From Paracoccaceae bacterium (GTDB lineage Bacteria > Pseudomonadota > Alphaproteobacteria > Rhodobacterales > Rhodobacteraceae): 64,000 bases of DNA. Below, piece by piece: positions 12,125-37,186 of this stretch. The notes beneath the pieces were generated by a model. It was not told where the DNA came from, ran no database searches, and saw nothing but the letters and a program-made list of their open reading frames with translations. The first letter of the stretch is position 1; the number at the start of each line of letters is the position of its first letter. The position numbers and the translations under genes were made by a program. The stretch is taken from positions 20,259-84,258 of the forward strand of contig JBFKFZ010000001.1 of NCBI GenBank assembly GCA_041633555.1. Direction: 5' to 3'.

Positions 12125-12132
12125 GTCCAGCC

Positions 12133-17249: not shown

Positions 17250-17270
17250 GCCTTTCTCAGGCCCCTCTAA

Positions 17271-19982: not shown

Positions 19983-19998
19983 CTTCGTCGTCCTTCCT

Positions 19999-22898: not shown

Positions 22899-22904
22899 GA
22901 TGCC

Positions 22905-24195: not shown

Positions 24196-24221
24196 CTAAC
24201 GCCTCCGCACAATTGCAGGAG

Positions 24222-24252
24222 CCTGTGCTGGGGTTTCAAAACCCACCACAGG
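24222..24252 (-). promoter_or_regulatory. Stem-loop in the hcp-tagJ intergenic spacer (possible partial terminator or mRNA stabiliser)
   Basis: CCTGTGGTGGGTT-TTGA-AACCCCAGCACAGG on the coding strand, 27 nt after the hcp stop. No U-tract. Confidence 0.4.
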
Positions 24253-24278
24253 CGATCTTTGAGAAAGCAACAGGCTGT

Positions 24279-24797
24279 TCAGACGGCCAGGTTCGCCTGG
24301 TTCTTGACGCGGCTCCATTCTGCGGTCTTGGGCTGCTCCATCGAACCGTCCTGCTTTTGCTTGCGGTAGCTGACCTTCATCGCCCCGTACTGGATCACGA
24401 TGGTCTCTTCGCAAACATCGTCACCGTCCGCGCCGGACCAGCTGATGTCCTGCAGCATCACCAGTTTGAACTCCCATTTCAGGAACCCATCCCCGGACTT
24501 GCCGGCCATGCCGCCAGAGCGCCGCAGCTCGATGACCATGTCATCGAAATGCTTGCCCTCGCAGAGCTTGGCGAAAAGCTCGGCCGACGAAGTGTCGGTC
24601 TTCTTGGTGATCGTCAGTTCCTTGAAGGTCGCCTTACCGGCACCACCACCACCGGAGATGGATCCGATATTGATGTTGTTCTCTGCGCCGATCTCGAAGC
24701 TGAGGATCTCGAGGGCCTTCTCGGCCTTCATTATCTCGTCCTGCGTTTCCCCTTCAATCTTTGATCCGGGAAAGTACATGAATGCGTCAAATGCCAT
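24279..24797 (-). CDS. hcp: T6SS tube protein Hcp (TssD)
   Basis: 172 aa starting MAFDAFMYFPGSKIEGETQDE, a typical Hcp1-family size and start. Lies between tssC and tagJ. Confidence 0.95.
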   Translation of the reverse strand: MAFDAFMYFPGSKIEGETQDEIMKAEKALEILSFEIGAENNINIGSISGGGGAGKATFKELTITKKTDTSSAELFAKLCEGKHFDDMVIELRRSGGMAGKSGDGFLKWEFKLVMLQDISWSGADGDDVCEETIVIQYGAMKVSYRKQKQDGSMEQPKTAEWSRVKNQANLAV

Positions 24798-24859
24798 TTG
24801 GGTCGCTCCTTTTCATAATTCTCGCTGTTGGTGCGTGTCAGATCAATTTCACACGCGGT

Positions 24860-26353
24860 TCAGCCCTTCTCTGCGGGCAGTTTTGATACCAGCCTCAAGG
24901 ACACTGATAGCCCTTCAAGCTGATAATGAGGTCGAAGGAAAAACTTCGACGAGTAGTATCCTGGATTTCCTTCCACATCCTCCACGACAACTTCGGCAGC
25001 AGCCAGCGGCTGACGCGCCTTTACCGCTTCGGGCGATGTTTCGGAGTTGAAATCGACGTAGTTGTTAATCCATTCCTGCAGCCAAATCTGCATTTCTTCG
25101 CGGCTCTTGTAAGACCCCACTTTATCACGAACGATGCATTTCAGGTAGTGGGCGAAACGGCAGGTCGCGAATAGGTATGGCAGCCGCGCCGCCAGATTGG
25201 CGTTGGAGGTCGCGTCCGGATCGGAATATTCAGCCGGCTTGTGCAGGGACTGCGCGCCGATAAAGGCCGCGAGGTCCGAGTTCTTGCGATGAATGAGAGG
25301 CATCATGCCGTTCTTTGCCAATTCGGCCTCGCGCCGGTCCGAGATCGCGATCTCGGTCGGGCATTTCTGGTCGATGCCGCCATCGTCGGTCGGGAAGGTA
25401 TGCGATGGCAGGTTTTCCAGCGCTCCGCCAGACTCGACCCCACGAATGCGCGAACACCAGCCGTATTCCTTGAACGAACGGTTGATGTTGACGGCCATGC
25501 CATAGGCCGCGTTCACCCAACTGTACTTGTTAGCGTCCGATCCGTCGGTATCCTCCTCGAAGGCGAAGGCCTCAACCGGGTCGGTTTTCGATCCGTAAGG
25601 CAGACGCCCCAGAAAGCGCGGCATCGCAAGGCCGACATACTTGCTGTCTTCGCTGTCGCGCAGCGAGCGCCAGCTTGCATATTCCGGCGTCTGGAATATC
25701 TTGGTCAGATCGCGCGGGTTTGCCAGTTCCGACCAACTGTCCATCTGAAAGAGCGCCGGGTCGGCACCGGCAATCAGCGGCGCATGGGCCGCGGCGGCGA
25801 TCTTGGCCATTTCGCCGAGAAGTTCCACGTCGGGCGGCGAATGGTCGAAATGATAATCCGCCACTAGCGTGCCATAGGGCTCGCCGCCGAACTGGCCGAA
25901 TTCCTCTTCATAGATCTTTTTGAAGATCGGCGACTGGTCCCAGGCGGTGCCTTTGAACTTGCGCAGGGTCTTATGCATATCCTTTTTCGAGATATTCATG
26001 ACCCGGACCTTCAGCATCTCGTCCGATTCAGTGTTGTTCACCAGATAATGCAGCCCGCGCCAGGCGCTTTCCATCTGCTGGAAATCGGCGTGGTGCAGGA
26101 TCAGGTTAACCTGTTCGGTCAGCTTCTTGTCGATTTCGGCGATGATCCCCTCGATCGAGCGAAGCGCGTCGTCCGAAATAAGCCCCGTATTTTCCAGCGC
26201 CTGCTGCGCCAGCGTCTTGACCGCCTGTTCGACGGCTGTTCGGGCCTGTTCGGATTTCGGTCGGAACTCTTTCTGCAGCAGCGCCTCGAAATCAGAGGCC
26301 TCTGCTACGGTTTCGCCAGCCTCGCCTGCGGCTTGTTTTTCTGTCTCGGCCAT
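24860..26353 (-). CDS. tssC: T6SS contractile sheath large subunit TssC (VipB/ImpC)
   Basis: 497 aa with conserved blocks HHADFQQMESAWRGLHYLV, AMPRFLGRLPYG, LPYLFATCRFAHYLK. Confidence 0.95.
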   Translation of the reverse strand: MAETEKQAAGEAGETVAEASDFEALLQKEFRPKSEQARTAVEQAVKTLAQQALENTGLISDDALRSIEGIIAEIDKKLTEQVNLILHHADFQQMESAWRGLHYLVNNTESDEMLKVRVMNISKKDMHKTLRKFKGTAWDQSPIFKKIYEEEFGQFGGEPYGTLVADYHFDHSPPDVELLGEMAKIAAAAHAPLIAGADPALFQMDSWSELANPRDLTKIFQTPEYASWRSLRDSEDSKYVGLAMPRFLGRLPYGSKTDPVEAFAFEEDTDGSDANKYSWVNAAYGMAVNINRSFKEYGWCSRIRGVESGGALENLPSHTFPTDDGGIDQKCPTEIAISDRREAELAKNGMMPLIHRKNSDLAAFIGAQSLHKPAEYSDPDATSNANLAARLPYLFATCRFAHYLKCIVRDKVGSYKSREEMQIWLQEWINNYVDFNSETSPEAVKARQPLAAAEVVVEDVEGNPGYYSSKFFLRPHYQLEGLSVSLRLVSKLPAEKG

Positions 26354-26356
26354 GCC

Positions 26357-26884
26357 TTACTCCGTCTCTTTTTGTTCTGACTTCTCGTCGGCCGTTTCCG
26401 CGGGCTTCTCGGCCAGGGTCGCAAGCAAAGCCGGATCCTGGATCACCTTGCGGATCAGTTCCTCTGCGCCGGTCTTGCCATCCATGTAGGTCATCAAGTT
26501 CGACAACTGGGTGCGCGCATCCAGCAGTTTCTTCAGCGGCTCCACCTTCGCGGCAATGGCTGCGGGACTGAAATCATCCATCGACTCGAAGGTGATATCG
26601 ACCGCCATGTTGCCTTCACCGGTCAGCGTGTTGGGCACAGAAAACGCAGCCCGGGGCTTCATCGACTTCATCCGCTCGTCGAAATTGTCGACGTCGATCT
26701 CCATGAACTTGCGGTCGGCAACCGAAGGCTGCGGCGCTTCCGACTTGCCCGCCAGGTCGGACATGACACCCATCACGAAGGGCAACTGGATCTTCTTTTC
26801 GGCCCCGTACAATTCCACATCATATTCGATCTGGACCCGTGGCGCACGGTTTCGCGCGATGAACTTCTGCGAACTTCTTGCCAT
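26357..26884 (-). CDS. tssB: T6SS contractile sheath small subunit TssB (VipA/ImpB)
   Basis: RVQIEYDVELYGAEKKIQLPFVMGVMSDLAG is the TssB signature. 3 nt upstream of tssC. Confidence 0.95.
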   Translation of the reverse strand: MARSSQKFIARNRAPRVQIEYDVELYGAEKKIQLPFVMGVMSDLAGKSEAPQPSVADRKFMEIDVDNFDERMKSMKPRAAFSVPNTLTGEGNMAVDITFESMDDFSPAAIAAKVEPLKKLLDARTQLSNLMTYMDGKTGAEELIRKVIQDPALLATLAEKPAETADEKSEQKETE

Positions 26885-26945
26885 CTCTTGCTACTCCTCA
26901 GCGATTGTCTTCAGGGCATTGCGGTCACGCGATGCAGGAATTCTC

Positions 26946-27974
26946 TTACTCATCGACCAGGCCTCCGATCAAATTGACATTCTCGATGCCGTTCGGGGCC
27001 ATATCCTTGACGATCGTCAGAAAATCAGCGCTGACCAGCCGTTTCGCCCGCGTCAAAAGGATCGGCACCGGGCTGGAGGGTTCTGCCCGCTTGTAATAGG
27101 CGATGATCCTGTCGAGCGCATTCTGCACATCATTGGGAGAGTTGATGGCCCCGACGCCACCGCCGGCCGCCTTCGCGCCGGCAGGGGCGGCTGCCGGTTC
27201 ACCGGCTTCGGCCCCGGCCTCGACCCCTTCGACTTCAACGGCATCACCGGCCACCGGCTCCAGCCGGGCGATGACCTGTCCCAGCAGCTTCATCAACGGG
27301 TCCAGTTCCGGCCCGCGCCCGGGAAGCATTTCGTCGAATTTGGCGTTGATCGCGCGTACGTTCTCGAGCGATTGACGGGCTCCGGTCAGTGCGGACTGCA
27401 GAAACTCCTGGGCCGTGTCCTGAAAGGCCGCCGCGATCGAGGAGGAGTCCGGAACTTCCTCGTCATCCTCTCCTGCGGTCGCCTCGCCCTCGGCGATGGC
27501 GATGTCGCGCAGGCTCATCCGCCCGAAGGTGCGGCTGTCGGTCAGCGGCGTGATCCTGATGCCGCGCAATATCGTATCGGGTGCGGCGAGCGACAGAATC
27601 ACGTTGATCCGCTGTGTCGGATCATCGTCATCATCGGCATCGAGCTGCGGGTGGCAGGTGTCCCAGTAGCGCTCCAGGCAGCCCCTGACATAGGCGGTTC
27701 CGTCGGCAAAGCCGGGAAAGCCCCGAAGACGCAATTCCGACATCGACAGAAACACGCCGGCCCGCAGGTCGTGGCTCTGTTCCAGCACCGCCAGAGCGGC
27801 CCCTGTCACTTCCTTGAAATCGGGATCTTCCGCGGCGATGATCTTGTCCCCGGCCTGACGCTCTTCGCCCGGCTGCGCCGCCAGTTCCAGGGTCATGAAG
27901 GCAAGATCGTAGACCATGTCCTCGCCACTTGGGTTTTCGTCGCCGTGGCTCTGAAGAAGTGCCTCTAGATCCAT
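26946..27974 (-). CDS. tssA: T6SS protein TssA (ImpA N-terminal domain family)
   Basis: ImpA_N-type start MDLEALLQSHGDENPSGEDMVYDLAFMTLELAAQ. First gene of the operon. Confidence 0.9.
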   Translation of the reverse strand: MDLEALLQSHGDENPSGEDMVYDLAFMTLELAAQPGEERQAGDKIIAAEDPDFKEVTGAALAVLEQSHDLRAGVFLSMSELRLRGFPGFADGTAYVRGCLERYWDTCHPQLDADDDDDPTQRINVILSLAAPDTILRGIRITPLTDSRTFGRMSLRDIAIAEGEATAGEDDEEVPDSSSIAAAFQDTAQEFLQSALTGARQSLENVRAINAKFDEMLPGRGPELDPLMKLLGQVIARLEPVAGDAVEVEGVEAGAEAGEPAAAPAGAKAAGGGVGAINSPNDVQNALDRIIAYYKRAEPSSPVPILLTRAKRLVSADFLTIVKDMAPNGIENVNLIGGLVDE

Positions 27975-28171
27975 TCACCCCCCATCGGGAATTAATCCAC
28001 CAGTTTCCGGTGCTTGACATTACTCAGCGGCAGCCTAGCACAAAAAAACGCGATGGCCAGTATGACAATCCAGACCTTCACCAAATCGCCCGAACCTGAA
28101 ACAAGTCTTGACCGATCCAGTGCCTTGACATTTCATTGCAGCCTGTGAGGAACGATCGTGGGGGGCGACAG

Positions 28172-28588
28172 ATGGGGTTCTCAAGGGCGGTATTGTGTGC
28201 CGCTGCGATCTGTGCCGGCCCGGCGTTCGCGCAGGACGGAAACCTGACGATCGAGCTCAACAAGTTCGAAGATACCGATGGCGGCAACTGCCAGGCGTTC
28301 TTTCTTTACCGCAATGGCACGGGCAAATCCTTCGAGGAATTCGAGATGTCGCTGGCGATCCTCGACACCTCCGGCGTGATCGACAGGCTCTTGACCGTCG
28401 ATGCGGCCCCCCTGCCCGTGGCCCGGACGACGTTGAAACTGTTCGAGATCCCGTCCATCGAATGTGCCGCGATATCGGAGCTTCTGCTGCATGCCATAGA
28501 TGCCTGTCGCCCGCAGAACGAGGATCGGATGGATTGCTTTCCCATCATCGATCTGGTCAGCCGCACCCCGGCTGCCTTGGTCAAATAG
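28172..28588 (+). CDS. Secreted hypothetical protein (138 aa, 4 Cys in the mature part)
   Basis: Signal peptide MGFSRAVLCAAAICAGPAFA/QDG. Stop lies 3 nt before the exbB start. The track start at 28136 is TTG; ATG 28172 is preferred. Confidence 0.6.
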   Translation: MGFSRAVLCAAAICAGPAFAQDGNLTIELNKFEDTDGGNCQAFFLYRNGTGKSFEEFEMSLAILDTSGVIDRLLTVDAAPLPVARTTLKLFEIPSIECAAISELLLHAIDACRPQNEDRMDCFPIIDLVSRTPAALVK

Positions 28589-28591: not shown

Positions 28592-29215
28592 ATGCTCGAA
28601 GGCCTGTTTGACTCGCTCGGCACCGGCGGGCCGATCATCATCATACTGCTGTGCATTTCCTTGCTGTCGGTGGTCCTGATCATCGCCAAGACCCTGCAAC
28701 TGCTGCCCGTGCGTGGCGGCGCCAAGCTGCGCGATGCCGCATTTGCCAAATGGAGAGAGGGCGAGCGCGACGCCGCCCGATCCCTGCTTGCCGGTGGCAG
28801 ATCCCCGGCGGACCGGGTCACGACCTTCGCGATGGACGGAACTCTCCGCGGCCTGCCCCGCGCCCCGCTGGAGGCGGAGGTCGAGCGCCAGGGCAATGCC
28901 GAGGTCGAGGCAATGTCGCGGCATATCCGGCTGCTCGAACTTGTCGCGATGATCTCGCCGCTGCTGGGGCTTCTGGGAACCGTCTTGGGCATGATCCAGT
29001 CGTTTCAGGAACTGGAACTGGCGCAAGGCGCGGCCAACGCCTCGGTCTTGGCAGGCGGTATTTGGCAAGCGCTTCTGACCACCGCCGCTGGCCTGATCGT
29101 CGCGATCCCGGCGGCGATTGCGGCCAGTCTGCTGAGCGCAAGGATCGACGCCGCCGCGCATCTCATCGAGGGCGCTGTCGGCCGGTTCTTCCTGGAGCTG
29201 GACACCAAGAGCTGA
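28592..29215 (+). CDS. MotA/TolQ/ExbB-family proton channel protein
   Basis: Three TM helices; conserved LELVAMISPLLGLLGTVLGMIQSF and GIWQALLTTAAGLIVAIPA. Confidence 0.9.
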   Translation: MLEGLFDSLGTGGPIIIILLCISLLSVVLIIAKTLQLLPVRGGAKLRDAAFAKWREGERDAARSLLAGGRSPADRVTTFAMDGTLRGLPRAPLEAEVERQGNAEVEAMSRHIRLLELVAMISPLLGLLGTVLGMIQSFQELELAQGAANASVLAGGIWQALLTTAAGLIVAIPAAIAASLLSARIDAAAHLIEGAVGRFFLELDTKS

Positions 29216-29228: not shown

Positions 29229-29648
29229 ATGGCCATGGAGCTACGCCGAGCAAGACCCGCCAAGACCCTGATCTCGCTCGTGCCGATGATCGACGTCATG
29301 CTGATCCTGCTGGTTTTCTTCATGGTCACGTCGAGCTATCTGAACCTCGACATGATGCCGATGGTCGAAAGCGCCGAAGATGCGCCGGCGGCCGGGGCAA
29401 GGGACTCTGCCGCGCCGCTGCTGATCCGCATCGCTGCCGATGGCCGCCCGCACATCCGGGGCCAGCCGCTCGACGCCAGCCAACTGACGTCGTTGATCCG
29501 TTCGCGGCTGACCGAGAGCCCGCTGTCCAGCGTGATTGTCCTTCCATCTGGTGCGGCCACAACGCAGCACCTGGTTTCATTGATGGACACGGCCACACAG
29601 GCGGGGGCGACCCGATTGCGCCTGATCCGGCTGGAGCCGCGGCCATGA
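29229..29648 (+). CDS. ExbD/TolR-family protein (copy 1)
   Basis: N-terminal TM helix with ISLVPMIDVMLILLVFFMV. 139 aa. Confidence 0.85.
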   Translation: MAMELRRARPAKTLISLVPMIDVMLILLVFFMVTSSYLNLDMMPMVESAEDAPAAGARDSAAPLLIRIAADGRPHIRGQPLDASQLTSLIRSRLTESPLSSVIVLPSGAATTQHLVSLMDTATQAGATRLRLIRLEPRP

Positions 29649-30049
29649 AGCTGTGCCGGGTCCGATCGCAACAAAGATCCGAGACGATCATTGCGCTGAT
29701 CGACGTGGTTTTCTTTCTTCTCGTGTTCTTCATGCTGATCGGGCGGATGGACGCCACCGCTCCGTTCGAAGTACACCCCGCTACCGCGGTGACAGGCGCC
29801 GACCTGCCCGCAGGGGGCGCCACGCTCTCGATCAGTGCGGCGGGGGCGCTTGCGCTTGACGGCACGGCCATCGCCGCGCCCGACCTGATGCCAACGCTAG
29901 CAGTCATGCTTGCCGAAAGCCCCGACTTATTGATCCGGGTCAATGCCCACAGGGATGCGCAGCTGCACGGGATCCTGCCGCTGATCGCCGAGATCGAGCG
30001 CGCGGGCGCGCGCGACGTGGTGCTTGTCGTGACGCCGGAGAGATCCTGA
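29645..30049 (+). CDS. ExbD/TolR-family protein (copy 2)
   Basis: IIALIDVVFFLLVFFML. 134 aa. ATGA overlap with copy 1. Confidence 0.85.
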   Translation: MKLCRVRSQQRSETIIALIDVVFFLLVFFMLIGRMDATAPFEVHPATAVTGADLPAGGATLSISAAGALALDGTAIAAPDLMPTLAVMLAESPDLLIRVNAHRDAQLHGILPLIAEIERAGARDVVLVVTPERS

Positions 30050-31503
30050 TGCGCGGCGCGGCGATCTGGGCAATGGCGGGGCTCGGTTCTCTCCTGGCCC
30101 ATCTTGCCTTCTTCGCATTCCTGGACCTTGCGGTATCCCCCGACCCCCTGACCCCGCAGCAGCCGCCTGAAACCCGCATGTCGCTGGATGCCTATCAGGT
30201 CGACAAGCAGGATGCGGTAGCACAATCGACGGCGGGCGAGACGGCGGCCGAGCAGGACAATGCGGGCACAGCGCTAAGTCCCAGCGCCGTCCTACAGTCA
30301 AGGGCGAGGGGCCAGCCGGTCTTTGGCGAGACGATCACCGATGCCGCGCCTCAGGTCGCCGCCATCGCCCCGTCCCGTCCGACGGGCCAGATCGTTTCGG
30401 CTGCCCGCCCGTCCGAGCCCGTCATCCCGGCCGCAAGCCCCGTCGCAACCGCCCTCGCGTCAAGCCCGCCACCTGCGGCCCCGATCCAGGCCGCCGCCCT
30501 GCCCGCGCCGTCAACCAAGGCCGCCACCCAGCCGCTGCCGGCGGTCGCAGTCGATGCGGCGCAGGCCCTTGCCTCGGCGGTCGCTGGACTCCCGCTACCC
30601 GCGATCGCCGCCGAAACCCCACCGCCCGAGGCGCAGGCGATTGTCGGTGTGCCACCGCCCTCGGAAGCGACCACCGCTACATTGGCCTGGAATTTCGGCG
30701 AACGCATCGTCACCGACCCGGCTTCGCTGGCGGTGATCCAGGCCTTCATGGCGCCGGTTGACCTGGCGAGTTCCAACACCAATGCCGGCGATGTCAGGGA
30801 TGGGCTGGCGGCGATCCTCACCGGCGTCGACTGCGCCCGGTTGACCGCCACATTCGTTCCCGAGACCGGCGAACTGGAGCTGCGCGGCCATGTGCCGGAC
30901 CCGGCCATGCAGGCGCCGATCCTGAAGGCGCTGCGCGAGCAGATCGGTGACGGCATCCCGGTGACGGGCAATCTGCTGCACCTGCCGCACCCGCAATGCG
31001 GCGCGCTGAGCGGCATCGCTGAGGCCGGACTGCCGCAATCGACCGACCAGCTGACCAACGCCCTGCTGATCGGCAACAATGCGCAAGCCCGCGAATATGG
31101 CTTCACCGAGGGTCAGCGTCTGGCCTTCGACCTGACCGCGCCTGACTACGATGCGGTGGTCTACGTCGACTATTTTGATGCGGGTGGTCAGGTGATCCAC
31201 CTGATCCCGAACGAGACCGTGCCACTGACGCGGCATCCGGCGAAATCGGGTTTCGGAGTCGGCACCGACAGTGCCGGCGGCCCGAGCCTGAACATCACCA
31301 TCGGGCCGCCCTTCGGGCAGGAAATCGCGGTGGCCTTCGCGGCGTCAACGCCACTTTTCGAGGACCTGCGGCCACTAATCGAACCTGCCGAAACATACCT
31401 GGCGGAACTGAAGCAACGCGTGGCCGAAGCCCGCGCCGCCGATCCCGGCTTCAAGGGCGAATGGGTCTATTTCTTCATCACGACGTCGCCCGCGACCCAG
31501 TAG
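30049..31503 (+). CDS. TonB/TolA-like anchored protein: His-containing N-terminal TM helix, Ala/Pro-rich linker, non-TonB C-terminal periplasmic module
   Basis: TM helix GLGSLLAHLAFFAFL (TonB-like His), ~190 aa of Ala/Pro-rich spacer, C-terminal ~235 aa resembling the periplasmic end of the ppkA product. Start overlaps the exbD2 stop. Confidence 0.7.
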   Translation: MRGAAIWAMAGLGSLLAHLAFFAFLDLAVSPDPLTPQQPPETRMSLDAYQVDKQDAVAQSTAGETAAEQDNAGTALSPSAVLQSRARGQPVFGETITDAAPQVAAIAPSRPTGQIVSAARPSEPVIPAASPVATALASSPPPAAPIQAAALPAPSTKAATQPLPAVAVDAAQALASAVAGLPLPAIAAETPPPEAQAIVGVPPPSEATTATLAWNFGERIVTDPASLAVIQAFMAPVDLASSNTNAGDVRDGLAAILTGVDCARLTATFVPETGELELRGHVPDPAMQAPILKALREQIGDGIPVTGNLLHLPHPQCGALSGIAEAGLPQSTDQLTNALLIGNNAQAREYGFTEGQRLAFDLTAPDYDAVVYVDYFDAGGQVIHLIPNETVPLTRHPAKSGFGVGTDSAGGPSLNITIGPPFGQEIAVAFAASTPLFEDLRPLIEPAETYLAELKQRVAEARAADPGFKGEWVYFFITTSPATQ

Positions 31504-31505: not shown

Positions 31506-33056
31506 TTATTCGCAGCCGCCCTCAGCCCAACGCATGAGGCTATGCTTGAAACTGGCGCCATAGGGATGCGGCTTTTCCAAAGAACGGCTGGCCGAGGCTG
31601 ACAGATAAGTCGTGGCCTGCGTGCAGAGATCCTCGCGGGTCCATTCGTGGCAGTTCGCGCAGGTCTGGCCCTTCCAGAGTTCGTCCGGAATGCCCTCGAT
31701 CGGCGGGAAGATCGGCGATCCGGCGACCAGTTCCTCGATGCTCTTGCCGACAATCTCGGACGTGCCAGACTGAAGTGGTTGGGAAAACAGCACCGGTACG
31801 CCGTGCGGAGGGATCGCAACGGGTTCAATCTCTGGCTCCGGCGTGACGGGCGGTGCCGCAGCTTTGGTGGCCGCCGCTTCGGCCTGAGCCTGCAGGGTAC
31901 GGATCTCGAACCTTGCAAGTTCCGAAAAGACGCCTTCGGGGAATTCTGCCAGATAGTCCTCGTAATCGGCCAGTTGTCCCGTGCGGCGCGCCTGTTCGAT
32001 CAAGTCGGCCTCGCGGTCCGCAGGTGCGGTCGCCTCGGGCGAAGGCTCGGGTGCTGCCGCCACATCCGGCTCGGCAACCGGTTCCTGACCGGACTTCAGT
32101 TCTTCCTTCAGGACGTCGCTGAGCAGTGCTTGGGCGTCTTCTCTGTGCAGCCCATCGGGATAGGATCGCAGGAACAGGAGGATCTGAACCGGATCCCGCG
32201 ATAGCTCGACCGAACGCCAAAGCTGCTGCTCGGCGACTTCCTCCGGGGTCATTTGCCGGCCAGCCTTGAAGACGAAGTCGCTGGTCAACGACGATGTATC
32301 CCACGGCGTCTGCGCGCCGCCGGTTTCCGCGATCACCTTGACCCGCACGTTCTTGAACAGCTGCTCGATGGACAGGTCTTCGCTCATCATCTCGGCGGCC
32401 AATGCACTGGTGAAGGGGCTGTTGCCCTGCACACCGTCCAGCGCGACCGAGCCGGGCGCGGTGGCATAAGCAAGGTAGGTGCCGGTCGGGGCCTTCATCT
32501 CGGCCAGACCATTGTCGTTGAGCGACGGGATCGCTTCGAACGGATTGTTGCGGCAGGCATCGAGGATCACGATGTTGGTGCGGTTCCGCGCCGAGGCCAT
32601 CTGGCGCAGCACGGCCGAGGCTTCCAATGCTACAAGGTCCAGATCGGCGGCGTTGGTCAGGCGCGTGTCGACCGGCAAGAGGTAGTTCGCTCCAAACGAC
32701 TGCACCCCGTGGCCGGCATAATAGAAAAGCCCCACCGTATCGGATCCGCCTGCGCGAAGTTCACTGCCGAAGCCAGAGATCGCCCGCTTCAGTTCAACCT
32801 GCGGCGCATCCGTCAGCAACATGACCCGGAAACCCACATTTTCTAGGCTTTCAGCCATCAGCCTTGCATCATTCACCGGGTTGTCGAGCGGCTCAACCGC
32901 AGTATAGCCGCCATTGCCGATGACAAGTGCAATCCGCTCTTCTGCAACCGCCGGAAGCGTGAGCCACAGCAGTGCTGCAAGCCCGGTGGTTATGCGAAAG
33001 AACAAACTCACGCAGCCACTCTCGCCCGGCATGATGTCAGGATCGGGGCCGTCCAC
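31506..33056 (-). CDS. Exported caspase-family (peptidase C14) protein with a C-terminal CxxCH motif
   Basis: Signal/anchor LAALLWLTLPAVA. Caspase His/Cys dyad contexts FYYAGHG and VILDACRNNPF. Two ...FLRSYPDG.../...YLAEFPEG... helical motifs. CANCH encoded at 31647-31661. Confidence 0.85.
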   Translation of the reverse strand: MDGPDPDIMPGESGCVSLFFRITTGLAALLWLTLPAVAEERIALVIGNGGYTAVEPLDNPVNDARLMAESLENVGFRVMLLTDAPQVELKRAISGFGSELRAGGSDTVGLFYYAGHGVQSFGANYLLPVDTRLTNAADLDLVALEASAVLRQMASARNRTNIVILDACRNNPFEAIPSLNDNGLAEMKAPTGTYLAYATAPGSVALDGVQGNSPFTSALAAEMMSEDLSIEQLFKNVRVKVIAETGGAQTPWDTSSLTSDFVFKAGRQMTPEEVAEQQLWRSVELSRDPVQILLFLRSYPDGLHREDAQALLSDVLKEELKSGQEPVAEPDVAAAPEPSPEATAPADREADLIEQARRTGQLADYEDYLAEFPEGVFSELARFEIRTLQAQAEAAATKAAAPPVTPEPEIEPVAIPPHGVPVLFSQPLQSGTSEIVGKSIEELVAGSPIFPPIEGIPDELWKGQTCANCHEWTREDLCTQATTYLSASASRSLEKPHPYGASFKHSLMRWAEGGCE

Positions 33057-33149: not shown

Positions 33150-34232
33150 ATGTCTTTTTTTGGCCTTGGGAAGTTCATGATGCATTTCGTTCGCCTGTTC
33201 GCGTGTTTGTTCATCTGGTCGCTCGCGACCATGGCACCGGCTCAGGACAATCCGTTCGCCCCCGGCTGGGTGCTGCAGCCAGAGGCCTCATCGCTTCGCT
33301 TTCAGTCGGTGAAGAACCAGTCGAAGATCGAATCTTCCTCTTTCGCCACGATCTCTGGGGAGATCAATCCTTCGGGCAAGGCTGGCGTGAAGATCCTGCT
33401 GGATAGCGTCGACACGAAGATCGATCTGCGCAACGTCCGGATGCGCTTCCTGTTCTTCGAGACGTTCAAGTTCCCCGAAGCCACCATCAGCGTTCAACTC
33501 GATGCAGCCGATATCGCGGATCTGGCGCAAGTCAGGCGCAAGACGATGGTTCTGCCTTACACGATCACCCTGCACGGCATCACCAAGGCGCTGGAAGCCA
33601 ATCTTGCCCTGACCCTGATCGACGATGATCTGGTGGCGGTCTCGACCAACGAACCGATCACACTTGCGGTTGCCGACTTTGCCCTGACCGATGGTCTAGA
33701 GAAGCTCGAAGATGCCGCCAGCGTCGAGATCGTACCCTCGACTACTGTCACATTCGACTTCATTTTCAATCGTTTGCCTGGCGAAGCTGATGCAACTATT
33801 ACGGCGGCCACGACTCCTGAAAAGCCCGCCAGCGTCGCGCTTGAAGCCCAGGGTGATTTCTCGCTGGAAGCCTGCGTCGGTCGGTTCGAGATCCTGTCAC
33901 GTACCGGAAACATCTATTTCGGGCCCGGCTCTGCCCGGCTCACCGCCGATAGCTGGCCACTTCTTGATACGGTCGCCGACATCGTGCAGCGGTGCCCCGG
34001 CCTTGTCATTCAAGTGGGCGGCCATACCGACAGCCTTGGGCCTGACGATGCGAACCAGACCCTGTCCGAACGGCGTGCCGGCTCGGTCGTCACTTATCTC
34101 GCCGGGAAGGGCATCGCCGCTGACCGCGTGATTCCGGTCGGGTTCGGAGAGAAGTACCCTGTCGCCACGAATGATACTCCGAAGGGTCGCGGCCAGAACC
34201 GGCGGATCGAGTTTTCCGTCGGCAACAACTGA
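33150..34232 (+). CDS. Exported YceI-like domain fused to an OmpA/MotB peptidoglycan-binding domain
   Basis: Signal peptide (M)MHFVRLFACLFIWSLATMAPAQ. YceI-like LRFQSVKN...FATISGEI...LDSVDT. OmpA-like IYFGPGSARL...VGGHTDSLG...NRRIEFSV. The start could also be 33177/33180. Confidence 0.8.
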   Translation: MSFFGLGKFMMHFVRLFACLFIWSLATMAPAQDNPFAPGWVLQPEASSLRFQSVKNQSKIESSSFATISGEINPSGKAGVKILLDSVDTKIDLRNVRMRFLFFETFKFPEATISVQLDAADIADLAQVRRKTMVLPYTITLHGITKALEANLALTLIDDDLVAVSTNEPITLAVADFALTDGLEKLEDAASVEIVPSTTVTFDFIFNRLPGEADATITAATTPEKPASVALEAQGDFSLEACVGRFEILSRTGNIYFGPGSARLTADSWPLLDTVADIVQRCPGLVIQVGGHTDSLGPDDANQTLSERRAGSVVTYLAGKGIAADRVIPVGFGEKYPVATNDTPKGRGQNRRIEFSVGNN

Positions 34233-34300: not shown

Positions 34301-37186
34301 ATGAATAGGAGCGAGGAAGAAACCGACGAGCTGAAAAGCATGCTGGCCGTGGCGCGCAAGCGGGTGATCAATTTCGCGGTCTGCCTTGGTCAGAACCACG
34401 AAACCACGGTCTTTGCGATGCATCGGCGCAAATCGCCGGACGTTCTTGGCCGTCAGGTCAAACGCGAGGGCGAGACCACCAAGATCACGACGGGGCAGGT
34501 CCGGCTGAAGGCAAAAACACTGGCCCTGACCTGCATCGAACCGCCTCCGCCCGGCGCGGCGCGCCAGCTGCGGTTGTATTTTCGCGACTTCGGGCTGCCC
34601 TTGAAGATTGACCTCCTCGAGGCCGACGGCGCGGCACTGGAAAGCGACGGCGATGACGATGGCGTCGATGCCAAGGAGATGTTACGGCCCTCGGCCCCGA
34701 AGCCCGGCAAGAGGGCGGCGAAATGGAATGCCTTGCTGCCGGCCTTCGAGCAGGCCGTCGGCAGGGTCGTGGCCGCAAACGGCCCCAAGGCCGGGGCAAT
34801 CCAGTCGGCTTGGGAGGGTGCCAAAGCCGCAGCCGATAAGGGCAAGTACAAATCCGCTCTCGCGGCGGTCAAGAAGATCAAGCCACTGCTTAATGCAAGA
34901 CCCAAGCCAGAGAATGACGGTGCCGACGCAGATGATGGTGGATGGGCCCGAATCGAAGCCCGTCTGCAACAACGGCTGCAAACGGCGCTCGCCGCCTTCC
35001 CCGAGAAGGCGGACAAATGGTCGACCGCACTTGATATGGCCCGGCAGAAGGCCGCGGATGGCGACCTGAAGACCGCCGCGCTGATTGCCAGGAAGCTCTC
35101 TGACGCACTCGAAAAGGCGGGTCGGAACGGCGCAGACACTGCTCCTGCAGATACGCCTGACCTGTCCGCGTGGCATGTCGCGCACGATGCGCTGACAGAG
35201 CGGCTGCGCGGCATCGGTCGGGCCTTCGACACGACACGGCTTGCCAAGCTGCTGATCGCGGCGCGAATCGATCTCGAACGCTCGCCGGAAGAGCTGCCCA
35301 AGGCGCTCGCGATCGCCCAGGAGCTCGACACTGCACTGACCGCCGAGGGCATGGCCTATCTCAGATCTGCCAAGGCCGAGGCCACGTCCGCCCTCGCCAC
35401 CATCCAGACTTACCGGGGGGTTGACGATCATGCCAGTCGCCTCAAGGGCCGACTTTCGACGATGGACAAGGCTGCCAGCCGCACGCCGCCGGATTTCGAG
35501 GATATTCACGCAACTCATGCCGCGATCATGGCCGCCCGTGCCGACCTTCGACCGCTGTCGGACCGGTTCGAGGCCGACTACAACGAATGGATGACAAGGA
35601 AGGCCAACTGGTGCGACAAGCCACTGGCAAAGCTGAAGGATACGGTCGTCAGTGAGAGGAAAGGCAAGATCCAGGGCAACCTCGTCGAAGCTGAACGGTC
35701 GTTGGACCGGGGCGACCTGACCAGGGCGAAGCGGCTGATCACGGATGCGTACTGGGATATCAAAGCGGCGGAGGACATTGTCGAGTCGAAGACCAAGCTT
35801 GTCACAATGAAAAGCCAAGCCGAAGCCGCAATCGGCCAGATCACGGCGGCCTTGTTGGCAGACTACCCTTCCGAATGCGCGGCCCTGAAGGCTGATATCG
35901 ACCTGGCAGCGGCCAAGGAGGTCGCGGGCGATTACTATACCGCATCCCTCATTCTGGCGCCGCTGCCGGCCGCCATCGCGGAGCTATTGGCCCGCCCTCG
36001 CCGCGGAACGTTCTCCGAGCGGCTTGAGACCCTGCAGACTAAGGTCGGCGATGATGCCGAGTTGCAGGCCTTGATGGATCGGGCAAGGTCGGATGACCCG
36101 GTCAGGGCGCCCATGGCCCTTGATGAAGCCGAAGCCCATATTGCAGCTGCCGAGATCCGTGCCGCAATCGCGACAGGCAAAGCGCCGCCGCACGACCAAC
36201 TGAAAGATCTGGCAAGAAGCCTAGAAGGGCGGCGCCTTCTCGACGCGCTGATCTCCGAAGCTTCCGACGAAGCCGTGCCCGGGATCGCCGCTGCCCGGTT
36301 CGGCTTCGACACAAGCCCGGTCGAGCCGGACGGATCAGCACCGCCTGCCCGGGCCGCGGACATGCGAAAGCTCTGCCGGTTGCTTGCCGACGCGCCCGGC
36401 GAAACTGCGGTCCAGACCCGCGACATGCTGACGTTCAAACCAATCGATACGTCGCGAGATAAGGACGAAGGCCATTCGACGAGCCCCGGCCCGGTATTCC
36501 ATTCCGGTATCAGCGGTGCGGTCTACACGTCCGCCTACAATCCGCTGGACAAAGATCTGACCGCCTTTGGCGAAGCGGGCGGAACTGGCCATCTCGACCC
36601 CGATGATCTCGGCACGACGACGAGCAGCGGCGACAACCCGTCCTACGGGCGGTGGGCGGCGATGCACCAGCTTGGGCAGGCGATCAACCGCCGCAAGAAG
36701 TTCATGCAAACCAATGGCCACAAACAAGAATTCTCCGGCTGGCAGGATCATGGCAGGGATCTGTCCGACCTCGCCCGAACTGTCGCAGCGCATTTCGGGA
36801 TCGAGCGGGCCTTCGTCGAACGCGCCATGACAGGGATCAAGACCGAACTGCCCACGAAAGCCAGCCAGTACGATGCCGTGGAACAGACCGCCGAGCAATT
36901 ACAGGCTGGTCATGCCGACTTCCTCGACTGGCTCGGAATGGTGGGTCATGCCGGGCGGATCTGGACTTCTTCCAGCCGGACGGCCACTGCCAGAATCGGC
37001 GCGCGCGTGATCCAGGAAACGTCTCCGGGCCATTGGGTTTCATATGATCATGCGGCACGTGCTAAGGTCGTTTCGGCGGTACAGTTCCGGTCGCCCGGCG
37101 ATTGGTTCGCCGAGCTATACGCGGCCTATTTCACCAATGTCCTGCACCCGTCGCATCCGGCCCGGGACTGGTTGAGCAAGCTGTGA
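34301..37186 (+). CDS. Large hypothetical cytoplasmic protein (961 aa): N-terminal ~100-aa domain shared with the 42088 ORF, Ala-rich ~73-aa helical repeats, C-terminal globular region
   Basis: Long uninterrupted ORF with no TM segment or signal peptide. Recurring xGD(Y/L)xxAxxL motifs. C-terminus contains MHQLGQ and DWFAELYAAYF. Confidence 0.7.
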   Translation: MNRSEEETDELKSMLAVARKRVINFAVCLGQNHETTVFAMHRRKSPDVLGRQVKREGETTKITTGQVRLKAKTLALTCIEPPPPGAARQLRLYFRDFGLPLKIDLLEADGAALESDGDDDGVDAKEMLRPSAPKPGKRAAKWNALLPAFEQAVGRVVAANGPKAGAIQSAWEGAKAAADKGKYKSALAAVKKIKPLLNARPKPENDGADADDGGWARIEARLQQRLQTALAAFPEKADKWSTALDMARQKAADGDLKTAALIARKLSDALEKAGRNGADTAPADTPDLSAWHVAHDALTERLRGIGRAFDTTRLAKLLIAARIDLERSPEELPKALAIAQELDTALTAEGMAYLRSAKAEATSALATIQTYRGVDDHASRLKGRLSTMDKAASRTPPDFEDIHATHAAIMAARADLRPLSDRFEADYNEWMTRKANWCDKPLAKLKDTVVSERKGKIQGNLVEAERSLDRGDLTRAKRLITDAYWDIKAAEDIVESKTKLVTMKSQAEAAIGQITAALLADYPSECAALKADIDLAAAKEVAGDYYTASLILAPLPAAIAELLARPRRGTFSERLETLQTKVGDDAELQALMDRARSDDPVRAPMALDEAEAHIAAAEIRAAIATGKAPPHDQLKDLARSLEGRRLLDALISEASDEAVPGIAAARFGFDTSPVEPDGSAPPARAADMRKLCRLLADAPGETAVQTRDMLTFKPIDTSRDKDEGHSTSPGPVFHSGISGAVYTSAYNPLDKDLTAFGEAGGTGHLDPDDLGTTTSSGDNPSYGRWAAMHQLGQAINRRKKFMQTNGHKQEFSGWQDHGRDLSDLARTVAAHFGIERAFVERAMTGIKTELPTKASQYDAVEQTAEQLQAGHADFLDWLGMVGHAGRIWTSSSRTATARIGARVIQETSPGHWVSYDHAARAKVVSAVQFRSPGDWFAELYAAYFTNVLHPSHPARDWLSKL

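What the first reader, a model, noticed from the sequence alone, without database searches (positions are those of the whole stretch)
30790..31500. The TonB-like protein and the T6SS kinase PpkA share the same ~235-aa periplasmic module
Residues ~248-484 of the TonB-like protein align by eye with residues ~395-636 (track numbering, nt ~1215-1940) of the kinase. VRDGLAAILTGVDCARLTATFVPETGELELRGHVPDPAMQAPILKALREQIGDGIPVTGNLLHLPHPQC aligns with ITPLLDRFANCGPLELVAPPRIGYAISDAIVVSGKLADAKSRLDLANAIIDIAGDRQVAVEAEILSPDLC, a BON-like pattern. EYGFTEGQRLAFDLTAPDYDAVVYVDYFDAGGQVIHLIPNE aligns with RYFVGENPVIDVVVPGRVTDGFIWVSVLDVSGNVFHLLPNL, which is DUF4384-like from memory. The kinase lacks the vWA domain of the Pseudomonas PpkA paradigm. 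Two different transducers, a PMF motor output and a Hanks kinase, would then present the same sensor or interaction module in the periplasm. That hints at heterodimerisation or competition for one ligand controlling T6SS firing.
Basis: seen in the sequence. Interest (0 to 1): 0.65.

Follow-up and report, generated by a model that had tools for sequence, protein, structure and literature searches.

The report
TonB-like protein carrying T6SS kinase's periplasmic module
A membrane protein built like the energy-transmitting protein TonB, encoded beside a bacterial type VI secretion weapon in hundreds of marine Rhodobacterales genomes, ends in the same periplasmic domain as the kinase that switches that weapon on, so membrane energy and kinase signalling may be read through one kind of envelope contact, though that link is not yet shown.

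Summary
Residues about 247-484 of the 484-aa protein "A" (30049..31503) are homologous to residues about 393-636 of the T6SS Hanks kinase "K" (33..1943). Direct BLASTP is weak (E 2e-4, 105 aa). Family profiles align over 191 columns (hhalign E 4e-10). Each sub-part matches only its counterpart. A K-module HMM retrieves 77 A orthologs and no unrelated ORF out of 6,265. An Azospirillum T6SS kinase bridges the two (33% identity to A over 239 aa, E 5e-19).

The module is a BON/ring-building-like unit, a DUF4384 Ig-like sandwich, a helix-strand tail and an invariant Cys pair.

A has TonB's conserved SxxxH membrane helix and an Ala/Pro-rich spacer, and is translationally coupled to exbB-exbD-exbD. 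It lacks the TonB C-terminal domain.

The orf150-exbB-exbD-exbD-A operon sits divergent from tssA. ExbB and both ExbD genes are present in 72/72 related loci, and T6SS genes lie next to it in 64/69.

Heterodimerisation or ligand competition is untested. A's module is closer to other lineages' kinases than to its own K. K-type kinases work without A in Rhizobium. A-like modules recur with caspase and OmpA genes outside T6SS. I found no published description of ExbBD/TonB-like genes as T6SS accessories.

The parts
33..1943 (+). T6SS Hanks-type Ser/Thr kinase K (PpkA position). The N-terminus is cut by the window edge.
   Evidence: Pkinase E 2e-25, starting at profile position 70. The frame is open from base 3. 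It lies convergent with the PP2C phosphatase gene, next to TagF, TssM and Fha.
738..806 (+). Predicted membrane helix of K (residues 236-258, GLFVPLLAVVLLAAIGAGGYFGGFF)
   Evidence: Hydrophobic stretch read from the sequence. No TM predictor was run.
816..1208 (+). Two BON/ring-building-motif-like repeats of K's periplasmic region (residues 262-392)
   Evidence: AF2 pLDDT 94, repeated beta-beta-alpha-beta units. Foldseek hits YscD 4alz and PrgH 3gr0 at E 3e-4, and Rv0899 BON 2kgs/2ksm at probability 0.99-1.0. A's BON-like unit matches these repeats at E 1e-5 and 2.5e-3.
1209..1940 (+). Shared module in K (residues 393-636): helix, third BON-like unit with C406/C465, Ig-like sandwich with the FHLLPN motif, RPxxES helix, final strand
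1946..2923 (-). PP2C phosphatase (PppA position)
   Evidence: PP2C_2 E 3e-12
9717..11201 (-). T6SS FHA protein (Fha/TagH), the expected kinase substrate
   Evidence: FHA E 3e-15 and T6SS_FHA_C E 4e-57
26946..27974 (-). tssA, first gene of the minus-strand T6SS operon. It is divergent from the exb operon.
   Evidence: NCBIfam TIGR03363 at 215.6 bits, above the 160.85 cut-off. The '+' ORF 26511..27968 is its antisense artefact.
27975..28135 (.). 161-bp divergent intergenic region between tssA and orf150
   Evidence: Coordinates. The same arrangement is seen in 64 of 69 related loci. No sigma-70 consensus match.
28136..28588 (+). orf150: small secreted protein of unknown family, first gene of the exb operon
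   Evidence: Signal-peptide-like N-terminus. No Pfam, NCBIfam or PDB hit. Present in 71 of 72 loci.
28592..29215 (+). ExbB/TolQ/MotA-family proton-channel subunit
   Evidence: MotA_ExbB E 1e-28. Below the NCBIfam TolQ and ExbB equivalog cut-offs. Present in 72 of 72 loci.
29229..29648 (+). ExbD/TolR-family subunit 1, with an Asp in the membrane helix (PMIDVML)
   Evidence: ExbD E 1e-18. Sequence. Present in 72 of 72 loci.
29645..30049 (+). ExbD/TolR-family subunit 2, with an Asp in the membrane helix (LIDVVFF). It overlaps both neighbouring genes.
   Evidence: ExbD E 1e-14. Sequence. Present in 72 of 72 loci.
30049..31503 (+). Protein A: TonB/TolA-like anchor and spacer with the PpkA-type module at the C-terminus
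30061..30129 (+). Membrane helix of A (residues 5-27) with S14xxxH18
   Evidence: S14 conserved in 103 of 105 and H18 in 104 of 105 orthologs
30136..30663 (+). Ala/Pro-rich spacer of A (residues 30-205), variable in length among orthologs
   Evidence: 24% Ala and 17% Pro. Family lengths run from 230 to 763 aa with the module always C-terminal.
30787..31500 (+). Shared module in A (residues 247-484): helix, BON-like unit with C262/C317, DUF4384 sandwich with the IHLIPN motif, RPxxEP helix, final strand
31506..33056 (-). Secreted caspase-family (Peptidase_C14) protein with an invariant His116/Cys168 dyad and a C-terminal invariant CxxCH. It is convergent with A, with a 2-bp gap.
   Evidence: Peptidase_C14 E 8e-38. 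Conservation in 45 orthologs. Within 4 kb of A in 46 of 67 loci.
33150..34232 (+). Secreted YceI-OmpA protein (lipid-binding-like domain plus peptidoglycan-binding domain); candidate envelope partner
   Evidence: OmpA E 9e-22 and YceI E 2e-11. Present in 43 of 67 loci.

Best explanation
Protein A is a TonB/TolA-class transducer that spans the periplasm. Its membrane helix with the SxxxH signature should dock into a divergent ExbB-ExbD1-ExbD2 proton channel. An Ala/Pro-rich spacer of variable length carries its C-terminal domain towards the outer envelope.

That C-terminal domain is not the TonB-box-binding domain. It is the module that alphaproteobacterial T6SS PpkA-type kinases carry at the far end of their periplasmic region: one BON/ring-building-like unit, a DUF4384 Ig-like sandwich and a helix-strand tail, probably locked by a disulfide.

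Shown here:
- the homology of the modules;
- the TonB-like anchor;
- the operon structure;
- the very strong synteny with T6SS in Rhodobacterales.

Inferred:
- The orf150-exbBDD-A operon is a lineage-specific accessory of this T6SS.
- The module is a docking domain for an envelope partner. An OmpA-family peptidoglycan-bound protein is the best candidate, and the secreted caspase-like protease is the second.
- The kinase and the PMF-driven arm therefore touch the same kind of envelope site. One reports it by phosphorylating Fha. The other pulls on it or remodels it with proton-motive force, much as TolQRA acts on Pal.

Whether the two arms act on one partner, or on each other, is not established.
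For: Homology of the modules: with matching AF2 topologies and overlapping Foldseek neighbours (YscD 4alz, AA11 9exj, PPAD Ig domain, C3 MG domains).

Invariant Cys pair at aligned positions: A C262/C317 and K C406/C465.

TonB-like features:
- SxxxH conserved in 103-104 of 105 orthologs.
- Spacer composition.
- Gene overlaps with exbD2.
- MotA_ExbB and two ExbD hits, each ExbD with the membrane Asp.

Accessory status:
- 283 species-level genomes encode A relatives. All named ones among the 80 retrieved loci are Rhodobacterales.
- ExbB, ExbD1 and ExbD2 are present in 72 of 72 loci. TssC lies upstream in 64 of 69.
- In plasmid pSC52_2 the whole exb-A-caspase-OmpA block has moved to the ppkA end of the T6SS cluster and is still contiguous with it.
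- 23 of 24 A-bearing plasmids also carry a K-type kinase.

Partner inference:
- An OmpA-family gene lies within one to three genes of the module gene in every context inspected: this window, SC52, Qingshengfaniella, Rhizobium Kim5, Ralstonia RRA.1 and Azospirillum TSA2s.
- Caspase genes accompany the A-like clade in the Rhodobacterales loci, the Azospirillum lipoferum T6SS, Ralstonia and Azospirillum TSA2s.

Precedent: in Acidovorax, PpkA acts as a structural partner of an outer-membrane protein, TssW (PMC12607579).
Against: No functional data exist for any member.

A and K modules share only about 19% identity and belong to different sub-clades, so they may bind different partners.

K-type kinases occur in Rhizobium and Sinorhizobium T6SS loci with no A homologue detected on those plasmids. 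The Rhizobium Kim5 locus has no exb genes or caspase within 20 kb.

Five of 69 loci, and Qingshengfaniella, have the exb-A operon away from any T6SS genes.

A-like modules with caspase and OmpA neighbours exist in loci without T6SS.

Synteny in Rhodobacterales may partly reflect inheritance of one mobile, often plasmid-borne island rather than selection.

ExbB and ExbD score far below the curated TolQ, ExbB and TolR cut-offs, so their partner specificity is unknown.

The caspase (46 of 67 loci) and YceI-OmpA (43 of 67) are not always present.
Confidence: 0.55

Rival explanations
1. Independent use of a promiscuous periplasmic domain. DUF4384-type modules are fused to many outputs: kinases, caspases, papain-like proteases, or nothing. 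On this reading the exb-A-caspase-OmpA genes form a separate Tol-Pal-like or envelope-proteolysis system that merely travels with the T6SS island and does not regulate T6SS.
For: - A-like modules with caspase and OmpA neighbours occur without T6SS in Ralstonia RRA.1 and Azospirillum TSA2s.
- In Qingshengfaniella the exb-A operon is on a different replicon from the T6SS. Five of 69 loci have no adjacent T6SS genes.
- A is closer to foreign modules than to its own K.
- The literature already notes DUF4384 fused to kinases and to proteases.
Against: - 64 of 69 loci across many genera keep the operon head-to-head with tssA.
- In SC52 the block was rearranged and still stayed attached to the T6SS cluster.
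- The closest non-orthologous relative of A's module is itself a T6SS kinase, sitting next to a T6SS-embedded caspase gene.
- Every A-bearing plasmid genome also has a K-type T6SS kinase.
Confidence: 0.3
2. The A and K modules bind each other (hetero-oligomerise), or compete for a single ligand, so that the PMF motor directly gates kinase activation.
For: - The fold is shared, and its BON/ring-building-like unit resembles the oligomerising periplasmic domains of PrgH and YscD.
- A and K co-occur in the same genomes.
- In Pseudomonas, PpkA activation is known to require dimerisation driven through its periplasmic side (review PMC13584744).
Against:
- Identity between the modules is low and their sub-clades differ.
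- K-type kinases function in lineages where no A was detected.
- The A-like and K-like clades have partly different conserved neighbours: caspase for A-like, M15 peptidase for K-like.
Confidence: 0.12
3. The similarity is chance or compositional, for example generic beta-sandwich features.
For: Pairwise BLASTP covers only 105 aa at E 2e-4. K itself has no Pfam hit in this region.
Against: - hhalign E 4e-10 over 191 columns.
- Sub-parts are significant only on the diagonal.
- The K-module HMM gives 77 true hits and no false ones among 6,265 ORFs.
- A bridging sequence matches A at E 5e-19.
- Cys pairs and motifs align, and the AF2 topologies match.
Confidence: 0.01

Closest known systems
ExbB-ExbD-TonB energy-transduction system (E. 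coli TonB)
   Same: A single N-terminal membrane helix with the conserved Ser-x-x-x-His signature. A proline-rich periplasmic spacer of variable length. The gene is translationally coupled to exbB and exbD. Both ExbD genes keep the membrane Asp.
   Different: There is no TonB C-terminal domain (PF03544), and no TonB-dependent receptor is encoded nearby. The output domain is a BON-like plus DUF4384 module. There are two ExbD paralogues. ExbB and ExbD score far below the curated ExbB/ExbD equivalog cut-offs. The operon is embedded in a T6SS locus.
TolQ-TolR-TolA / Pal (Tol-Pal system)
   Same: A 5:2-type stator together with an SxxxH-anchored periplasm-spanning protein. An OmpA-family peptidoglycan-binding protein is encoded close by. 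ExbB scores best against TolQ, though below the cut-off.
   Different: No TolA domain III, no TolB, and no Pal lipoprotein equivalog. The neighbour is a YceI-OmpA fusion, present in only 43 of 67 loci. The spacer is Ala/Pro-rich rather than the long TolA helix.
PpkA/TagE-PppA-Fha threonine phosphorylation pathway of T6SS (P. aeruginosa H1-T6SS, A. tumefaciens, S. marcescens, A. citrulli)
   Same: K is a membrane Hanks kinase encoded in a T6SS cluster with a PP2C phosphatase, TagF and an FHA protein. Its sensor or anchor domain is periplasmic.
   Different: The periplasmic region is three BON/RBM-like units plus a DUF4384 sandwich, not a vWA domain. Here a second, non-kinase protein of the locus carries the same terminal module. 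TagQRST was not looked for.
Pfam DUF4384 (PF14326) and BON_like (PF21923) domains
   Same: A and most of its orthologs hit PF14326, and some hit PF21923. Fusion of DUF4384 to bacterial Ser/Thr kinases ('Proteo1') and to proteases is already noted (bioRxiv 10.1101/2025.01.12.632604 and 10.1101/2022.08.17.504292).
   Different: The conserved unit here is larger than the 81-residue Pfam model. It also includes the BON-like unit with a Cys pair and a helix-strand tail. The K-type version mostly escapes the Pfam model. No function or structure is known, and fusion to a TonB-like anchor has not been described in what I could search.
Periplasmic ring-building motifs of T3SS PrgH/YscD and BON domains (Rv0899, DolP/OsmY)
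   Same: The predicted alpha-beta-beta-alpha-beta units of K (three) and A (one) are the best Foldseek matches to YscD 4alz, PrgH 3gr0 and Rv0899 2kgs/2ksm.
   Different: TM-scores are low over the whole chains (0.17-0.57), and sequence E-values against the PDB are only 0.13-0.15. There is no evidence of ring formation or lipid binding here.

Membership tests
TonB (ExbB-ExbD-TonB) | N-terminal single membrane helix with the conserved Ser-x-x-x-His motif | tested here: met
   S14 conserved in 103 of 105 and H18 in 104 of 105 aligned orthologs. S...H found within the first 70 aa in 109 of 142 50%-identity representatives, some of which are N-terminally truncated.
TonB (ExbB-ExbD-TonB) | Encoded with ExbB and ExbD | tested here: met
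   MotA_ExbB E 1e-28, ExbD E 1e-18 and 1e-14. Present in 72 of 72 loci with enough flank. Gene overlaps seen.
TonB (ExbB-ExbD-TonB) | Proline-rich periplasmic spacer | tested here: met
   Residues 30-205 are 17% Pro and 24% Ala. Spacer length varies across the family, 230-763 aa in total.
TonB (ExbB-ExbD-TonB) | C-terminal TonB_C domain (PF03544) that binds the TonB box | tested here: not met
   No TonB_C hit at E <= 0.1. The C-terminus is DUF4384/BON-like. No NCBIfam hit.
TonB (ExbB-ExbD-TonB) | PMF-dependent conformational energisation | not testable with these tools
   Needs genetics or biochemistry.
TolA / Tol-Pal | TolA C-terminal domain III and TolQ/TolR equivalogs | tested here: not met
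   No TolA_C hit. TolQ 72.8 bits against a cut-off of 221. TolR 50.2 and 23.4 bits against a cut-off of 127.3.
TolA / Tol-Pal | OmpA-family (Pal-like) partner encoded in the locus | tested here: inconclusive
   YceI-OmpA lies two genes downstream and is present in 43 of 67 loci. It is not a Pal equivalog: 59.6 bits against a cut-off of 125.
Pfam DUF4384 (PF14326) | Score at or above the gathering threshold (27 bits): protein A | tested here: inconclusive
   The window protein scores 26.1 bits, E 9.5e-6, over the full-length model 2-81 of 81. Most of the 120 listed orthologs carry a precomputed PF14326 hit.
Pfam DUF4384 (PF14326) | Score at or above the gathering threshold: kinase K | tested here: not met
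   No hit for the window K at E <= 0.1. 13 of 39 orthologs hit at E <= 0.05, best 6e-5. Homology to A's DUF4384 segment shows only by profile-profile comparison, E 1.5e-6.
BON / BON_like (PF04972, PF21923) | Pfam score above threshold; alpha-beta-beta-alpha-beta fold | tested here: inconclusive
   A: BON_like 14.3 bits against a cut-off of 24.1. A few orthologs carry a precomputed PF21923 hit. AF2 shows the fold in both proteins. Foldseek hits Rv0899 BON and YscD/PrgH.
T6SS threonine-phosphorylation kinase (PpkA/TagE) | Hanks-type kinase domain | tested here: met
   Pkinase E 2e-25. The N-terminal ~70 profile positions lie outside the window.
T6SS threonine-phosphorylation kinase (PpkA/TagE) | Encoded in a T6SS cluster with a PP2C phosphatase and an FHA protein | tested here: met
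   PP2C at 1946..2923, TagF, TssM, TssL, TssK, and Fha at 9717..11201.
T6SS threonine-phosphorylation kinase (PpkA/TagE) | Periplasmic vWA domain, as in P. aeruginosa PpkA | tested here: not met
   No VWA family among Pfam hits at E <= 0.1. AF2 shows BON-like repeats and a sandwich instead.
T6SS threonine-phosphorylation kinase (PpkA/TagE) | Phosphorylates Fha or TssL and activates secretion | not testable with these tools
   Needs experiment. Known for homologues in Pseudomonas, Agrobacterium and Acidovorax.

The most novel reading that the evidence does not exclude
The orf150-ExbB-ExbD-ExbD-A operon would be the first proton-motive-force motor dedicated to a type VI secretion system. Its TonB-like arm ends in the sensor module of the PpkA kinase. 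It would pull on, or co-assemble with, the same OmpA-family or caspase envelope partner, or PpkA itself. T6SS assembly or firing in Rhodobacterales would then be gated by envelope energisation or integrity. This T6SS cluster has no tssJ gene in the usual place, so the arm might also supply the missing link to the outer envelope.
Probability: 0.25. Interest if true: 0.8.

Novelty: new variant of a known kind. Interest (0 to 1): 0.6.

Why it matters
The signal that switches on the threonine-phosphorylation pathway is unknown outside Pseudomonas and Serratia. The periplasmic domain of alphaproteobacterial PpkA kinases has not been characterised.

This work defines that domain: BON/RBM-like repeats followed by a DUF4384 sandwich module. 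It also shows that the terminal module was grafted onto a TonB/TolA-type, ExbBD-coupled anchor, and that the resulting gene is conserved beside the T6SS. Relatives of A are found in 283 species-level genomes, and T6SS genes lie next to the operon in 64 of 69 inspected loci.

This gives a concrete hypothesis that can be tested genetically in cultivable Ruegeria, Leisingera and Phaeobacter strains: does a PMF-driven arm take part in T6SS control or anchoring? It also adds to the growing list of 5:2 stator motors with non-canonical outputs.

The recurring association of the module with secreted caspase-like proteases and OmpA-family proteins points to candidate partners for a large domain family of unknown function.

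Tried and rejected
1. I first treated the 485-aa '+' ORF 26511..27968 as a conserved gene (66 of 80 loci by tblastn). It is the antisense shadow of tssB (26357..26884) and tssA (26946..27974).
2. The exhaustive HMMER search with the A module found 1,269 cluster representatives at E <= 0.001. The 150 shown are all TonB-like orthologs, so the distant tail (kinases and others) could not be inspected.
3. The third word-indexed search, with the Azospirillum kinase module, returned only 14 proteins, mostly short stand-alone Azospirillum DUF4384 proteins. It gave little on architectures.
4. The word-indexed searches returned only short or partial K-family proteins, so full-length architectures came from plasmid annotations instead.
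5. PDB sequence searches with both family profiles and with orf150 found nothing below E 0.13.
6. Foldseek gave only generic Ig-like, RBM and BON neighbours with low TM-scores. No specific functional analogue emerged.
7. Model coordinates are not exposed to scripts, so A and K could not be superposed. I compared secondary-structure order under the hhalign register instead.
8. The promoter/terminator scan of 27900-33300 gave nothing above the shuffled background.
9. Literature searches for ExbB, ExbD, TonB or TolQ in T6SS clusters found nothing relevant. This included a 2026 review of T6SS accessory factors and a survey that covers Leisingera T6SS clusters.
10. Chance similarity was considered and rejected.
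Full report
**What is at the coordinates**

The finding spans 30790-31500, which encodes residues 248-484 of a 484-aa ORF, here called A (30049..31503, + strand). The other protein, here called K, is the ORF listed as 33..1943(+). Its frame is open from the first bases of the window, so the kinase is cut at its N-terminus. Pfam finds the kinase domain only from profile position 70 onward.

**Context**

From 1946 to 27974 the minus strand carries a T6SS cluster. In order it encodes:
- a PP2C phosphatase, TagF, TssM, TssL-OmpA, TssK and an FHA protein;
- a DUF6931 protein and VgrG;
- a VipA/VipB-like fusion and an Ion_trans channel;
- ClpV, TssG, TssF, TssE, an ImpE-family protein, Hcp, TssC, TssB and TssA.

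K is convergent with the phosphatase gene at one end of the cluster.

At the other end, 161 bp upstream of tssA and divergent from it, begins a tightly packed plus-strand operon. It consists of orf150 (28136..28588, a secreted protein of no known family), an ExbB/TolQ/MotA-family gene (28592..29215), two ExbD-family genes (29229..29648 and 29645..30049) and A.

Downstream of A are three more genes:
- a convergent secreted caspase-family gene (31506..33056);
- a YceI-OmpA gene (33150..34232);
- a 961-aa ORF with no family hit.

**Is the similarity real?**

Pairwise BLASTP aligns only A368-459 with K515-617 (E 2e-4, 23% identity). I therefore collected both families: 344 relatives of the A C-terminus and 66 of the K C-terminus.

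- hhalign of the two family profiles gives 96.7% probability, E 4.3e-10, over 191 columns, A259-460 against K403-618.
- When the module is split into parts, each part matches only its counterpart. The BON-like unit gives E 3e-4, the sandwich E 1.5e-6, the helix-strand tail E 2e-8, and sandwich plus tail E 1.7e-11. Every comparison of non-equivalent parts gives E >= 0.012. A's BON-like unit also matches K's two other BON-like repeats (E 1e-5 and 2.5e-3).
- An HMM of the K module was searched against all 6,265 six-frame ORFs (>= 100 aa) of 80 related loci. It returns 79 hits: 2 K orthologs and 77 A orthologs (E 3e-9 to 0.03). No unrelated ORF is hit.
- A bridging sequence makes the homology visible to plain BLASTP. 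The T6SS kinase of Azospirillum lipoferum 4B matches A's module at E 5e-19 (33% identity over 239 aa, end to end, both Cys aligned) and K's module at E 2e-7.
- Two Cys are invariant in both families at aligned positions: A C262/C317 and K C406/C465. This suggests a disulfide and a periplasmic location.

**What the module is**

AF2 models built from independent alignments are confident: the A module has pLDDT 87.3, and the 375-aa periplasmic region of K has pLDDT 94.0.

- K consists of three alpha-beta-beta-alpha-beta units, then a beta-sandwich, then a strand-helix-strand tail.
- A has one such unit, then the sandwich and the same tail.
- Under the hhalign register the helices and strands coincide one for one (my comparison).

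Foldseek against the PDB finds only remote neighbours:
- T3SS ring-building domains (YscD 4alz in both lists, PrgH 3gr0 at E 3e-4 for K);
- the BON domain of Rv0899 (probability 0.99-1.0) for the alpha/beta units;
- Ig-like sandwiches (C3 MG domains, PPAD Ig domain, AA11 9exj in both lists; Wzt CBD and RhoGDI for K).

No solved structure is related by sequence; the best E-value is 0.13.

Pfam labels are as follows:
- A scores 26.1 bits for DUF4384 against a cut-off of 27, and most of its orthologs are flagged PF14326.
- BON_like is weak in A (E 0.038).
- K has no hit. 13 of 39 K orthologs reach DUF4384 at E <= 0.05.
- K has no vWA domain.

**Is A TonB-like?**

Partly. Its N-terminal hydrophobic helix carries S14-x-x-x-H18, conserved in 103 and 104 of 105 orthologs. 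From established knowledge of the family, this is the signature by which TonB and TolA couple to ExbBD and TolQR. Residues 30-205 are 24% Ala and 17% Pro. Family members range from 230 to 763 aa with the module always at the C-terminus. The gene overlaps the exbD2 stop codon. Both ExbD paralogues keep the membrane Asp.

There is no TonB_C or TolA_C domain. ExbB and ExbD score well below NCBI's curated cut-offs for TolQ, ExbB, TolR and ExbD. A therefore works like a TonB/TolA-class transducer, but it is not a member of either family by the C-terminal criterion.

The identical protein held in NCBI-derived collections is 441 aa (P0001). That length would fit a start at Met44 and would drop the conserved helix. 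The 484-aa start is supported by the family alignment.

**Link to T6SS**

A scan of one genome per species found 283 genomes with an A relative. All named organisms among the 80 retrieved loci are Rhodobacterales. In those 80 loci:

| Feature near A | Loci with it / loci with enough flank |
|---|---|
| ExbB, ExbD1 and ExbD2 | 72 / 72 |
| orf150 | 71 / 72 |
| TssC (T6SS) upstream | 64 / 69 |
| Caspase within 4 kb downstream | 46 / 67 |
| YceI-OmpA within 5.5 kb downstream | 43 / 67 |

Other observations bear on the link:
- In plasmid pSC52_2 the exb-A-caspase-OmpA block has moved to the ppkA end of the T6SS cluster but remains attached to it.
- Of 24 Rhodobacterales plasmids with A, 23 carry a K-type kinase on the same plasmid. 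The 24th organism, Qingshengfaniella, carries the kinase and the T6SS on another replicon. There the exb-A operon sits alone.
- K-type kinases also occur on 28 Rhizobium, 4 Sinorhizobium and 3 Paracoccus plasmids where tblastn detected no A homologue. The Rhizobium sp. Kim5 T6SS locus shows no exb genes and no caspase within 20 kb.

**Relatives of A's module elsewhere**

After its own orthologs, the Azospirillum kinase module finds the Rhodobacterales A proteins and some Burkholderiales proteins. It does not find the K-type kinases present in the same database. There are therefore at least two sub-clades of the module.

The A-like clade occurs in three further forms:
- fused to a T6SS kinase in A. 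lipoferum, whose cluster also holds a caspase gene;
- fused to a papain-family protease in Ralstonia RRA.1, flanked by a caspase gene and an OmpA gene;
- as a stand-alone protein in Azospirillum TSA2s, next to an OmpA gene and two caspase genes.

K-type kinases sit next to OmpA-family and M15-peptidase genes in SC52, Qingshengfaniella and Rhizobium. An OmpA-family gene is thus the one neighbour common to every context inspected. Caspases accompany the A-like clade.

**Most likely mechanism (inference)**

A is anchored in a divergent ExbB-ExbD1-ExbD2 stator. It uses proton-motive force to move a long spacer whose tip is the docking module of the PpkA type. The kinase presents a homologous tip on a stalk of two further BON/RBM-like units.

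The simplest reading is that the module docks onto an envelope partner. A peptidoglycan-bound OmpA-family protein is the best candidate, and the secreted caspase is the second. On this reading the T6SS locus couples two outputs, phosphorylation of Fha and a Tol-Pal-like mechanical action, to the same kind of envelope site.

The divergence of the two modules, and the existence of K-type loci where no A was detected, make it less likely.

The main rival is that exb-A-caspase-OmpA is an independent envelope system co-inherited with the T6SS island.

**Comparison with the literature**

Fusion of DUF4384 to bacterial Ser/Thr kinases and to proteases has been noted in passing. A 2026 review of T6SS accessory factors does not mention ExbB, TonB, TolQ or caspases. 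A survey that covers Leisingera T6SS clusters also has no mention of ExbB, ExbD or TonB. Other searches found nothing relevant. In Acidovorax, PpkA is a structural partner of the outer-membrane protein TssW, which is a precedent for an anchoring role of the periplasmic domain.

**Verdict**

The domain family itself is known but uncharacterised. The new points are:
- the full extent of the shared module;
- its presence on a TonB-like, ExbBD-coupled protein;
- the conservation of that operon as part of the Rhodobacterales T6SS locus.

I rate this a new variant of a known kind, with interest 0.6.

Noticed in passing
window 14602..16383 (-) and 16380..17249 (-): Inside the T6SS cluster there is a 593-aa protein with both VipA- and VipB-like segments (a second, fused sheath-like paralogue). 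Immediately next to it is a 289-aa Ion_trans (voltage-gated-type cation channel) gene. Qingshengfaniella's T6SS cluster has the same pair, annotated as 'ion transporter' and a 1063-aa 'sheath large subunit'. An ion channel conserved within a T6SS cluster is unusual.
   Followed up: partly
window 31506..33056 (-): The secreted caspase-family protein keeps the catalytic His116/Cys168 dyad. It also has a C-terminal domain with invariant C466-x-x-C469-H470 plus W472, C478, H497 and C515 in 45 orthologs. CxxCH is the haem-c attachment motif, so this may be a haem- or redox-linked periplasmic protease. No Pfam family matches that C-terminal domain.
   Followed up: partly
window 26511..27968 (+): A 485-aa ORF with tblastn matches in 66 of 80 loci is an artefact. 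It is the antisense of tssB (26357..26884) and tssA (26946..27974). Long antisense ORFs in this 62%-GC DNA can look conserved.
   Followed up: yes
window 8351..11201 (-): The FHA gene is followed directly by tssK. No gap in the cluster (1946..27974) could hold a tssJ lipoprotein gene, whereas Rhizobium sp. Kim5 has tssJ between tagH and tssK. This T6SS may lack TssJ, as reported for Agrobacterium (from memory). The rest of the genome could not be checked.
   Followed up: partly
window 30049..30177: The identical protein held in NCBI-derived collections (P0001) is 441 aa, against 484 aa for this ORF. That length would fit a start at Met44 and would remove the membrane helix with the conserved SxxxH. 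The upstream ATG overlaps the exbD2 stop, and the N-terminus is conserved in about 105 orthologs.
   Followed up: yes
L083 9326..13181 (Ralstonia sp. RRA.1 NZ_CP146092.1), L087 (Azospirillum sp. TSA2s), L082 (A. lipoferum 4B): A recurring gene trio was seen in four unrelated contexts, with or without T6SS: a caspase-family protein, a protein ending in the A-like BON/DUF4384 module, and an OmpA-family protein. The module-bearing protein is variously fused to a papain protease, fused to a kinase, or stand-alone. This may define an uncharacterised periplasmic caspase system.
   Followed up: partly
window 34301..37186 (+) and 28136..28588 (+): The 961-aa ORF has no Pfam or NCBIfam hit, but tblastn detects it in 21 of the related loci. 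orf150 is a small secreted Cys-containing protein and the first gene of the exb operon in 71 of 72 loci. It has no family or PDB relative.
   Followed up: no
L081 (CP049030.1), L086 (NZ_CP042263.1), L084 (NZ_CP021127.1): K-type T6SS kinases are consistently flanked by a small OmpA-family gene and an M15-family metallopeptidase gene (a peptidoglycan peptidase family). This holds in both Rhodobacterales and Rhizobium. The corresponding region lies just outside the left edge of this window.
   Followed up: no
window 816..1208 (+): The membrane-proximal part of the kinase's periplasmic region is predicted (pLDDT > 94) as tandem ring-building-motif/BON-like units. The best PDB matches are the T3SS inner-ring proteins YscD and PrgH. 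This raises the possibility that this PpkA oligomerises around the T6SS membrane complex.
   Followed up: no
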